Shown here in pieces: positions 14,658-37,020 of a stretch of 64,000 bases of DNA. Location: positions 34,038,001 through 34,102,000 of the forward strand of contig OX597815.1 of the NCBI GenBank assembly GCA_951406725.2. The letters are read 5' to 3'. Each line of letters begins with the position of its first letter. Positions within the stretch are counted from its first letter, which is position 1. The translations under genes and the position numbers were made by a program. The DNA is from Octopus vulgaris. Taxonomy: Eukaryota. The notes beneath the pieces were generated by a model that was not told where the DNA came from, did no database searches, and was given only the letters and a program-made list of their open reading frames with translations.

Positions 14658-15905
14658 ATGCTAAACTAAAGGAAGGTATTAGAATTTATCTCTCACTTAT
14701 TGCTACTAGAGTAATTACACCACGCCAAGGTTTCTTCTGCTACAGTTAATGCCGTTAACGACTGACTACTATATGATCCACAGCTAGCACTAAGAACTAA
14801 ATCAACTAACATGGGTATCTACAGAAATATTCTAAGAGAGGTTTTGTACTTGTGTTCATTATGGCAGTGTACTCCTTGTCAACATTATTGAGGAAATGCC
14901 AAGGTTACGTTAAGATCTGCGGAGTAAAGGAAATTAGTCACGCACATTGTTTGTGTCAATGACCAATAAGCTTTATTTAGTTACAATTCATAGCCCTAAC
15001 AAGATACAGGGCTGATCATAATATTTTTTACAGGACACAAGAATGGAGTTTGGTCCTACTTGTTTACACTTGTTCATATTCAGTAGTCAATCGAAGATTG
15101 TTGATCAGACGAGAAATATAGATGTCAGTAACCTATTTGCCTCCTATTTCCAAAGAGGAATGCTATAACTATCTTAGAATTGATTAGAATGTGGAACTTA
15201 CAGCTCTTGCAGCCATGCTACAGATTGTCATTTGAACCTATTATCAAGGTACACTGAACTATGTAACAACATATTGGCATAACAGCCTGGAAATGTGATT
15301 CTCCAAAAAAGAAGTAAACAAACTGACTTCGATCCTTTAAATCCAATCGATTAGTGATACTTGAAAATTTGTAAAACATTCCAAAGGCATCTTAGGACAA
15401 TAATGGTATATTTGAAGAGTATGTGTATACAATCGAGGAATAGGAAATACTAATAATATAGTTGATTGACAAAATAGATGGGGATACAGGGAAGACACCG
15501 ACAACCGATGCAGACTTTGTTGAATGAACACTGAAGACGTCACCCACATCATTGGCAGCCATCCGAGAATGCCATCACGGTGCAATTTACCTAAGGGGCA
15601 TAATGTCATGATTAAAACATGTATACAATACAATCTGTAGAAAAGATTATCTTAGAGACAAAAGTATAAGGAGTTGCAATAGTCAGAGTGCATTTTCATT
15701 CACAATATGAAAGAATACCTGTGAAATCTTCTTCTGAAAACCTTAGCAAAATATAAACGCAACTGACCAGACATAATGATCTAGGATAAGAAATTATATA
15801 TGATACTGAAAATTAGTTACGGAGATGTAGTTGCATAGCAAGTGACCTGATTTGAGATCGTGTGCTGGAACGAAAACAATTGCAGCGTGGAAGGTGTTTA
15901 TAAGC

Positions 15906-16146
15906 CATTTAAGAAACACACAAAAACCGTTAGATTCACTTCAACATTTAAGTTTAATTTGCCAAAATATTTTCGTTGCTTTGAGACTGCGACCTGATCA
16001 CTGACAAAATTCCGTGCAGCATCACGGAGATGCTGCACGGAATTTTGTCAGTGAACAGGTCGCAGTCTCAAAGCAACGAAAATATTTTGGCAAATTAAAT
16101 TTAAATGTTGAAGTGAATCTAACGGTTTTTGTGTGTTTCTTAAATG
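15906..16146. repeat. Long inverted repeat (~118 bp arms, 5 nt loop) in an insert bounded by an imperfect 12 bp direct repeat
   Basis: Arms nearly perfectly complementary around acgga (16024-16028); tgaaaattagtt at 15807 and tgaaaattactt at 16145. Confidence 0.9.
16044..16094 (+). ncRNA. Hammerhead-like motif with G3-C8 core variant (mirrored in the left arm)
   Basis: tttgtca-GTGAACA-g-gtcgc/gcaac-GAAA-atat-TT-tggcaaa. Confidence 0.55.
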
Positions 16147-34442: not shown

Positions 34443-34498
<56 letters not shown>

Positions 34499-34571
34499 TA
34501 AAACGGTAAGATAACAAAAGAAAGAAAGAGACCTCAATATTATGTAAATAGAGGAAATTTATCTATACAAT

Positions 34572-34767
34572 AATATGTTACATTACTCGATAGTCAAGAT
34601 AGAACTCCGAGTTTCAGATGCCGAAGTGGGAATCCACGACATCTCTTCGGTTATCTGGCTATTTGAAAACCTATTTCAAATAGCCAGATAACCGAAGAGA
34701 TGTCGTGGATTCCCACTTCGGCATCTGAAACTCAGAGTTTTATCTTGACTATCGAGTAATGTAACAT

Positions 34768-34770
<3 letters not shown>
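34572..34770. repeat. Long inverted repeat (~97 bp arms, 5 nt loop) between (TA)n tracts
   Basis: Near-perfect complementarity around accta (34669-34673). Confidence 0.9.
34686..34745 (+). ncRNA. Hammerhead-like motif (U4C variant), mirrored in the left arm
   Basis: agataa-CCGAAGA-gatgtcg...cggcatc-t-GAAA-ctc a gag-TT-ttatct. Confidence 0.6.
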
Positions 34771-34808
<38 letters not shown>

Positions 34809-35646
34809 TATATACCACCAAATAAGTTAGGGTTTGTGGATCCAACCCACTAAGGGATAATACTTATCCAATATACTGTTGGTATACTACCCAAATTATC
34901 AATACACAAGTGTTTTTAATTGCAATGCAATTAACTTTTTGTATTAAATGGGTGAAGGTAAAGAAATAAATATTTTACCATTAATTTATAATACAAATAA
35001 GAAAATGAAGAAATAATTTAGTTTGTTCATCAGCTAAATTATTTCTCCATTTTCTTATTTATATTATATACATATATACATATATACAGACAAGACCGCT
35101 GTGTGTGATGAGTAGACTTACATCTTTTAGCCATGGGGAGGTGAATTATTTAGAAGAGAGTTTCTCCAAACAAGAACCTGGTAGGTAGATCCAATATAAT
35201 ATTTGATCTGCAACCACTTATAGTTCATTGTCTTGATGTTTTTTTAAATATTTACACTGCACTGCTTAAAATACAATTTCATCTGCATAGCAAGAATATA
35301 ATTTCTATAGACTTGTATCACAAGAATATGTACTAAAATACGTTATATTTATATATAGCGGAAAACTTCTACATAAGTTCAAGGGTAAGCATCAAGACAA
35401 GGGACGAAGATGCGAGAAAGAAGCGAAGAAAAACAAATCAAAGAATGAATGAGACACGTTCCCCTCTAAACGGATAAAGAATGGAAACTTCAAGTGATAA
35501 CCAAGATTGATGGCAAAAAGACAAAGCAATTAAACATTTTCGAAACAGATTCACACATACCTATAAGCTGAAGAGGAAATAAATAAGAAGTCTGAGGCCT
35601 ATATGAATGTGCAATCGACTAAATTTCAAACAGTAACAATGAAATT

Positions 35647-35688
35647 GTACCAGTGACCAGGTCGCAGGAATGCGACGAAAATTTTGAC
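35647..35688 (+). ncRNA. Hammerhead-like motif with G3-C8 core variant
   Basis: ca-GTGACCA-g-gtcgc aggaat gcgac-GAAA-at-TT-tgac. Confidence 0.5.
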
Positions 35689-35776
35689 TGCTCAAGAAAT
35701 AAACGAAAAGTGAATATGTGAATTTATCAGTTTTTGTGTGTTGTTTTAGTTCGTTAAACTTTTCCTCGATGTAATT

Positions 35777-37020
<1,244 letters not shown>

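What the first reader, a model, noticed from the sequence alone, without database searches (positions are those of the whole stretch)
35647..35688. Second, diverged G3-C8 hammerhead-like motif
Seen: GUGACCA-g-gucgc/gcgac-GAAA-AU-UU-ugac. It shares core, stem II and GAAA with 16044 but has a different loop II, a shorter palindrome (AAAUUU) and flanks with no obvious similarity. Only N7 varies among the three cores (A, U, C), as expected for a hammerhead. Inference: conservation limited to the catalytic elements points to selection on a variant ribozyme family. Stem I is only 2 bp in this copy.
Basis: partly seen in the sequence, partly recalled or inferred. Interest (0 to 1): 0.75.

Follow-up and report, generated by a model that had tools for sequence, protein, structure and literature searches.

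The report
Decayed swapped-core hammerhead, Penelope retroelement
This is one worn-out copy of the end of an old Penelope-type jumping gene, likely in an octopus, carrying a hammerhead-shaped RNA motif whose paired core letters are swapped (G-C for C-G); the motif is predicted, not shown, to have cut its RNA slowly in the active element, and this copy is likely dead.

Summary
The motif is real (core 35653-35659). It is a minimal type I hammerhead in the leader of a Penelope-like element (PLE). The window holds a decayed, 5'-truncated end piece (about 35266-35778) of an old subfamily, next to (TA)n.

The flank is homologous to the 16044 element (72% over 103 nt) and is the PLE 5'UTR plus ORF start. 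Among genomic copies the core is about as decayed as the flanks, so this copy shows no selection. Two of the 'three cores' are arms of one inversion.

Selection shows between families instead. Homologous PLE families carry G3-C8, C3-G8 or U3-A8, always Watson-Crick, and 7 of 8 other core positions are invariant across five lineages. A young family with ORFs up to 1025 aa (RT plus GIY-YIG) has G3-C8 92 nt before its ATG.

Cleavage is untested. Only 3 of 90 copies start at the predicted cut, and a sister family has A9C. I found natural G3-C8 in no paper searched, but could not read Lunse 2017. This scan reported the swap before on other DNA (15 findings).

The parts
35266..35616 (+). Upstream part of the element (pLTR, putative intron); 5' boundary uncertain
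   Evidence: 60% over 384 columns to L002 (E 3e-11), shorter hits to L006, L020 and L326
35617..35633 (+). Putative branch point and 3' splice site about 20 nt before the core (inferred from sequence; no splice joint seen)
   Evidence: shared by B1 copies; family A has a branch-point/pyrimidine/AG motif at the same place, 967 pattern hits
35647..35652 (+). Stem I, 5' strand, decayed (2 bp left; family consensus 6 bp)
35653..35660 (+). Core G3-U4-G5-A6-C7-C8-A9 plus inserted G between positions 9 and 10.1
35661..35676 (+). Stem-loop II, 6 bp, closed by G10.1-C11.1
35677..35684 (+). G12-A13-A14-A15.1, palindromic AAUU (stem III only as a dimer) and U17; predicted cut between 35684 and 35685
   Evidence: sequence; same layout as the Crassostrea min-HHR row in Cervera 2014 Fig. 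S3
35685..35690 (+). Stem I, 3' strand, decayed
35691..35778 (+). PLE 5'UTR and decayed first codons of the ORF; ends where tail-less PLE ends stop
   Evidence: homologous to the family A leader and its MAYKHLPRCN start; 26 of 40 inverted family A ends stop at the matching position
35779..36260 (.). (TA)n microsatellite, likely the insertion target
   Evidence: tail-less ends of intact family A copies also abut (TA)n
15817..16146 (-).

Best explanation
The motif is a minimal type I hammerhead with a swapped G3-C8 core pair in the leader of a Penelope-like retrotransposon, and 35266-35778 is one 5'-truncated, decaying end piece of an old subfamily (B1) that is likely inactive. In the active element the RNA runs: putative intron end, hammerhead, about 90 nt of UTR, ATG of the RT/GIY-YIG ORF (order shown for sister family A; intron inferred). 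Reverse transcription likely starts about 30 codons into the ORF and often stops early, which leaves thousands of short copies with a fixed 3' end, 5' inversions and target duplications (pattern shown; mechanism inferred from the Anolis PLE work). The G3-C8 swap keeps the Watson-Crick 3-8 pair that positions the ribose of nucleotide 8. The master ribozyme is therefore predicted to have cut after U17, slowly, and only as a dimer or with help from the ORF protein. Most of the RNA that was copied into the genome was uncut.
For: Identity: family A G3-C8 motif about 1 kb after the stop of RT+GIY-YIG ORFs in 6 of 7 family A loci fetched (PF01541 at 25.4 bits), and 92 nt before the ORF's ATG in L340 and L356. 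A B1 copy (L326) carries RT and EN remnants 32-54% identical to that protein, with an inverted B1 copy at the truncation point. PLE insertion marks in 90 tail-anchored copies: 63 end at the same base, 40 have 5' inversions, and duplications of 7 bp or more flank 32 of 65 non-microsatellite sites against 4 of 65 controls. Selection in masters: position 3-8 is GC, CG or UA in 10 of 10 representative rows; 7 of 8 other core positions are invariant across five lineages against 9 of 48 UTR positions; pattern hits are 24 G3-C8, 5 C3-G8 and 3 mismatched of 32. Intact A and consensus B2 fold into stems I and II with the core unpaired (P 0.95-1.0; z -2.7). C3G/G8C partly restores cleavage in a PLE hammerhead, which needs the ORF protein (PMC11167929, passages). 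This copy: stem I broken, competing hairpin in the MFE, no other B-type copy in the window.
Against: No cleavage data. Only 3 of 90 family A copies start at the predicted cut (positions 61-62; two are inversion junctions, one an internal deletion), while 40 start upstream at positions 1-12. The intact sister family D has C at position 9 in 8 of 8 motif copies seen, so the core can slip in a mobile family. Predicted B1 and window homodimers bury the core in a competing duplex. G3-C8 is one evolutionary event shared by A and B, so covariation rests on two changes. The B1-ORF link rests on one locus. The C family consensus does not form stem I in the predicted fold. No splice joint was seen in contigs.
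Confidence: 0.65

Rival explanations
1. Same element, but the hammerhead fold is no longer catalytic in this clade. It is kept as a structure for binding the PLE protein, for splicing or for translation of the ORF that follows.
For: No pile-up of 5' ends at the cut site. A9C is fixed in the intact, high-copy family D. In Anolis, cleavage mutants insert normally in vitro and no RNA-seq reads end at the cut. min-HHRs cleave poorly in vitro (PMC4209133).
Against: The 3-8 pair forms in the catalytic fold, and it stays Watson-Crick through two double changes; G12, A13, A14, U4, G5 and A6 are invariant across five lineages.
Confidence: 0.28
2. This copy is itself under selection as a working or domesticated ribozyme.
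For: It is one of only 3 of 19 spanning B1 copies that keep core plus GAAA, with a perfect stem II including its CpGs.
Against: Stem I is down to 2 bp, there is no partner for a dimer, and the ORF start is lost. The copy was picked because it looks intact.
Confidence: 0.04
3. A chance look-alike inside a DNA-transposon (MITE) palindrome or other repeat.
For: The 16044 relative sits in a 241-nt palindrome; shuffle expectation is 0.067 per window; no Rfam hit over threshold.
Against: One fixed end, variable 5' truncation, and direct linkage to RT/GIY-YIG ORFs; covariation at 3-8.
Confidence: 0.02

Closest known systems
Minimal type I hammerheads (min-HHR) of metazoan PLEs, Cervera and de la Pena 2014 (PMC4209133; parts 1-2 of 4 of the text and parts 1-2 of 3 of supplement 2 read)
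   Same: Inserted nucleotide between 9 and 10.1, long helix II, G10.1-C11.1, palindromic 15.2-16.2 without loop 3, U17 allowed, position in the pLTR, mostly single truncated copies, inverted pairs, intron end next to helix I.
   Different: Core is G3-C8. Their Fig. S3 rows show only C3-G8, U3-A8 and one U3-G8. The inserted nucleotide is G (their consensus H, one G row).
Natural U3-A8 hammerheads (Perreault 2011, PMC3088659, passages; Schistosoma PLEs in PMC4209133)
   Same: Compensatory change at the 3-8 pair; U3-A8 also occurs here in homologous family E and in an unrelated 781-aa PLE.
   Different: G3-C8 needs two transversions and is not among the variants in the passages read.
Poseidon PAc hammerhead of Anolis and its C3G/G8C mutant (Frangieh 2024, PMC11167929, passages)
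   Same: Same core swap, partly active; hammerhead near the ORF start; insertion 3' end inside the ORF.
   Different: There it is an engineered mutant and the ATG lies in stem II. Here it is natural and the ATG is about 90 nt downstream.
EN+ PLEs with C-terminal GIY-YIG and CxxC linker (Neptune/Nematis type; Craig 2021, PMC8557442, passages and supplement hits)
   Same: RT then GIY-YIG with a CxxC linker, inverted 5'-truncated copy, tail at one end only, (TA)n targets.
   Different: Clade not assigned here. RT motif A-B spacing is 133 aa against 64 in another PLE of this genome. The element does not match the Hydra-1_Obim hammerhead listed there.

Membership tests
PLE min-HHR (type I hammerhead) | Core U4 G5 A6 N7, A9, G12 A13 A14, A15.1-U16.1, H17 | tested here: met
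   sequence
PLE min-HHR (type I hammerhead) | Canonical C3-G8 identity (CUGANGA) | tested here: not met
   G3-C8 in window, A and B
PLE min-HHR (type I hammerhead) | Watson-Crick 3-8 pair | tested here: met
   GC 5, CG 3, UA 2 of 10 rows; two independent changes on the tree
PLE min-HHR (type I hammerhead) | Helix II with G10.1-C11.1 and an insert after position 9 | tested here: met
PLE min-HHR (type I hammerhead) | Helix I of 3 bp or more (family consensus and intact copies) | tested here: met
   6-8 bp in A, B1 and B2 consensus folds
PLE min-HHR (type I hammerhead) | Helix I of 3 bp or more (this copy) | tested here: not met
   2 bp, P about 0.25
PLE min-HHR (type I hammerhead) | Palindromic 15.2-16.2 allowing dimers | tested here: inconclusive
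   palindrome present, but predicted cofolds do not form stem III and in B1/window bury the core
PLE min-HHR (type I hammerhead) | Site-specific self-cleavage after N17 | not testable with these tools
   no raw RNA reads offered; genomic proxy negative, 3 of 90
EN+ Penelope-like element | Linked ORF with PLE RT and C-terminal GIY-YIG | tested here: met
   family A; subfamily B1: remnants in one locus; none in the window itself
EN+ Penelope-like element | 5' truncation, inverted 5' copy, tail at one end, target duplication | tested here: met
   (family A); window copy ends at the tail-less position; its own duplication was not determined
EN+ Penelope-like element | Spliceosomal intron in the leader | tested here: inconclusive
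   3' splice-like motif and 5' ends piling at it; no joint in contigs
Non-LTR retrozyme | Non-coding tandem unit with one hammerhead per repeat | tested here: not met
   copies are dispersed ends of a coding element; the one tandem array seen (L077) includes non-element DNA in its unit
Named PLE clade (Neptune, Nematis, Poseidon, Hydra) | RT phylogeny with reference elements | not tested
   no named reference proteins were available as tool sequences

The most novel reading that the evidence does not exclude
A recently mobile, protein-coding PLE lineage uses a naturally swapped G3-C8 hammerhead that does cut in vivo with help from its ORF protein. One clade in one genome then samples C3-G8, G3-C8, U3-A8 and an A9C core, and G3-C8 hammerheads that CUGANGA searches miss are common in animal PLEs.
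Probability: 0.35. Interest if true: 0.55.

Novelty: new variant of a known kind. Interest (0 to 1): 0.38.

Why it matters
G3-C8 is known as a partly active laboratory rescue mutant. Here it is fixed in thousands of copies and in near-identical coding elements, and searches for CUGANGA or UUGANAA miss it. Homologous families with different cores give a ready series for the open question of whether PLEs need hammerhead cleavage at all. The locus itself is a fossil copy and adds only that the swap is older than the A/B split.

Tried and rejected
Rfam: no hammerhead among the best 150 of 198 whole-window hits; none over threshold in short stretches.

GIY-YIG family search: found other PLEs, with U3-A8 or C3-G8 hammerheads, that are not the partner of A or B. 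Close pairs of family A hits (L157, L158, L283) held no PLE ORF. No PLE ORF remnant was found in the window.

Sequencing runs: no RNA holder listed, contigs only; no splice joint and no end pile-up. These are not evidence either way.

Metagenome scan: 2 related loci, one with an ordinary C3-G8 motif behind the ORF, no G3-C8. One search's pattern was one base off for family B and returned families E and F instead.

MITE reading of the 16044 palindrome: rejected (one fixed end, variable inversions). 'N7 varies among three cores': rejected as evidence (two cores are one inversion; N7 is A in 49 of 50 family A copies).

Literature for natural G3-C8: 'hammerhead'+'G3-C8' gave 1 paper, on a lab variant; 'C3G'+'G8C'+'natural' gave 2; 'G3C8' had no occurrence in the 20 of 27 listed; 'G3 C8'+retrotransposon 0; GUGANCA/GTGANCA 0. 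Not held, so not read: Lunse 2017, Przybilski and Hammann 2007, Hammann 2012, Martick and Scott 2006, Nelson and Uhlenbeck 2008. Lunse 2017 lists many PLE hammerhead variants (recalled) and may already include G3-C8.

Full report
Observation. On its own this is marginal. The claim of unrelated flanks is wrong: 35643-35742 aligns to both arms of the 16044 palindrome at 71-72% over 103 nt.

Genome and families. The window lies in a 2.8-Gb assembly. The best protein hit of the linked ORF is named Octopus vulgaris by its source, so the host is likely an octopus. The region has 39 other matches at 68-89% identity among the 40 of 65 candidates scored. A pattern with free positions 3 and 8 gave 32 hits: 24 G3-C8, 5 C3-G8, 2 C3-C8, 1 G3-G8, with 0 in the reversed control. 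I call the 16044 type family A (1946 exact hits to a 27-nt pattern; 98 of the first 100 listed are G3-C8), the window type B (subfamilies B1 and B2), and the C3-G8 type C. Consensuses of A (28 copies), B1 (26), B2 (22) and C (8) are collinear over about 200 nt. Near-identical family A sequence is held by runs of six coded organisms.

It is the end of a Penelope-like element. In 90 family A copies chosen by their 3' tail (90 of 1005 hits), 63 end at the same base and 5' ends vary. Forty carry an inverted 5' copy, and 26 of these stop at consensus 150-154, short of the tail. Duplications of 7 bp or more flank 32 of 65 non-microsatellite insertions against 4 of 65 controls. Craig 2021 describes inverted 5'-truncated copies and a tail at one end only as PLE marks (PMC8557442, passages). 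Four copies kept an upstream branch-point/pyrimidine/AG motif. [quoted passage not shown] In 6 of 7 family A loci fetched whole, the G3-C8 motif lies about 1 kb after the stop codon; ORFs reach 1025 aa and repeated parts are 96-99.8% identical (PF01541). In L340 and L356 the G3-C8 motif is followed after 92 nt by the ATG of that ORF (20 loci examined, most were truncated before the leader).

The window copy. One B1 locus (L326) has RT and EN remnants 32-54% identical to the family A protein, 1.1-2 kb upstream, and an inverted B1 copy at its truncation point. The window copy is homologous to other B1 copies from about 35266, keeps the splice-like motif at 35617-35633, and stops at 35778, the tail-less position, against (TA)n. 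It has lost the ATG, has no ORF remnant or second B-type copy in the window, and its predicted fold replaces stem I with another hairpin.

Is the core selected? Not in the copies. Of 26 hits anchored downstream of the motif (they include the window itself and two arms of one locus), 19 span it (7 dropped, under 50% identity there). Identity to consensus is 0.75 for core 3-9, 0.67-0.73 for the stems, 0.68 downstream and 0.61 upstream; A13-15 and stem III are higher (0.84, 0.91) but are A/T runs close to the anchor. G12 is mostly lost, and 3 of 19 keep core plus GAAA. In family A, core and flank are both 0.966 (p=1.0). Between families it is selected. A second intact PLE (D, 1312 aa, about 59% identical in RT) and an older family E share the leader and N-terminal peptide. 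Position 3-8 is G-C in A and B, C-G in C and D, and U-A in E. Seven of 8 other core positions are invariant across five lineages against 9 of 48 UTR and 18 of 57 ORF positions. The p of 4e-5 in that call includes an upstream flank that is partly non-homologous, and lineages are related, so it overstates. The tree (C,D,(E,(A,(B1,B2)))) makes G3-C8 a single event.

Mechanism. Shown: anatomy, linkage, insertion pattern, predicted fold of intact copies. From papers: min-HHRs with an insert after position 9 and a palindromic stem III cut weakly and only as dimers or with a forced helix III (PMC4209133). In the Anolis PLE, single G8C or C3G mutants are dead, the double mutant is partly restored, cleavage needs the ORF protein and is not needed for insertion (PMC11167929). 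G8C costs about 10^5-fold and C3G partly rescues it (PMC8495972, passage). Inferred: the G3-C8 master cut slowly after U17. Against: only 3 of 90 copies begin at the cut while 40 begin at positions 1-12; family D has C at position 9; predicted B1 dimers bury the core. I put slow assisted cleavage at about 0.65 and a non-catalytic role at about 0.28.

Novelty. The kind is known since 2014. Natural covariation in the texts I read is U3-A8 only (PMC3088659 passages; PMC4209133 Fig. S3 rows; its supplement file 1 and part 3 of file 2 were not seen). Five searches found G3-C8 only as a laboratory variant. Lunse 2017 was not available and its alignments may hold it. Of the 2026 retrozyme preprint I read part 1 of 5; of PMC6765202 one section; of PMC6155905, PMC3884650 and PMC10085705 passages only. 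This scan's earlier notes report the same swap in 15 findings. I saw them after reaching my reading and do not count them as support.

Verdict. A real, inherited but decayed copy of a swapped-core PLE hammerhead. New variant of a known kind; the interest lies in the family, not in this locus. Interest 0.38.

Noticed in passing
L320:6391-6430 (also L321-L323): Intact 1312-aa PLE family D has C at hammerhead position 9 in 8 of 8 motif copies seen; contigs of public runs mostly read C at position 17 where L320 has T.
   Followed up: partly
L317:2971-6045 (-), L320:1942-5877: RT motif A-B spacing is 133 aa against 64 in the 781-aa PLE (L121): a large fingers insertion in a C-terminal-EN PLE. Craig 2021 describes such an insertion for N-terminal-EN PLEs and telomerase. 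303 relatives at E<=1e-20; clade unnamed.
   Followed up: partly
family A copies L159-L248, consensus positions 1-12: 40 of 90 5' ends pile up at the putative 3' splice site, often beginning with a short GAG that also matches the reverse complement of the tail; a very short exon 1 or microhomology priming could explain it.
   Followed up: partly
L121:779 and 5566, L123: An unrelated active PLE (781-aa ORF plus an upstream ORF, direct pLTRs) carries a U3-A8 hammerhead without the 9a insert.
   Followed up: partly
L124, L125 (about 500 nt after the stop): Another PLE family has a hammerhead with U4C (CCGAAGA) where its older relative L129 has CTGAAGA.
   Followed up: no
family A and B1 consensus: Predicted long-range helix between the 5' end of the leader and the ORF start region, enclosing the hammerhead, with different sequence in A and B1; covariation not tested.
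   Followed up: no
window 34496-34771: Large inverted repeat between (TA)n tracts; its centre passes the Rfam mir-9 threshold on both strands, probably because it is a perfect hairpin. The same sequence follows a family A copy in L251.
   Followed up: no
L077: Tandem array of six or more 425-nt units, each a family A end piece plus flanking DNA and a SINE fragment.
   Followed up: no
window 42499: Second G3-C8-like pattern hit with a long loop and weak stem inside a SINE-like stretch; probably chance.
   Followed up: no
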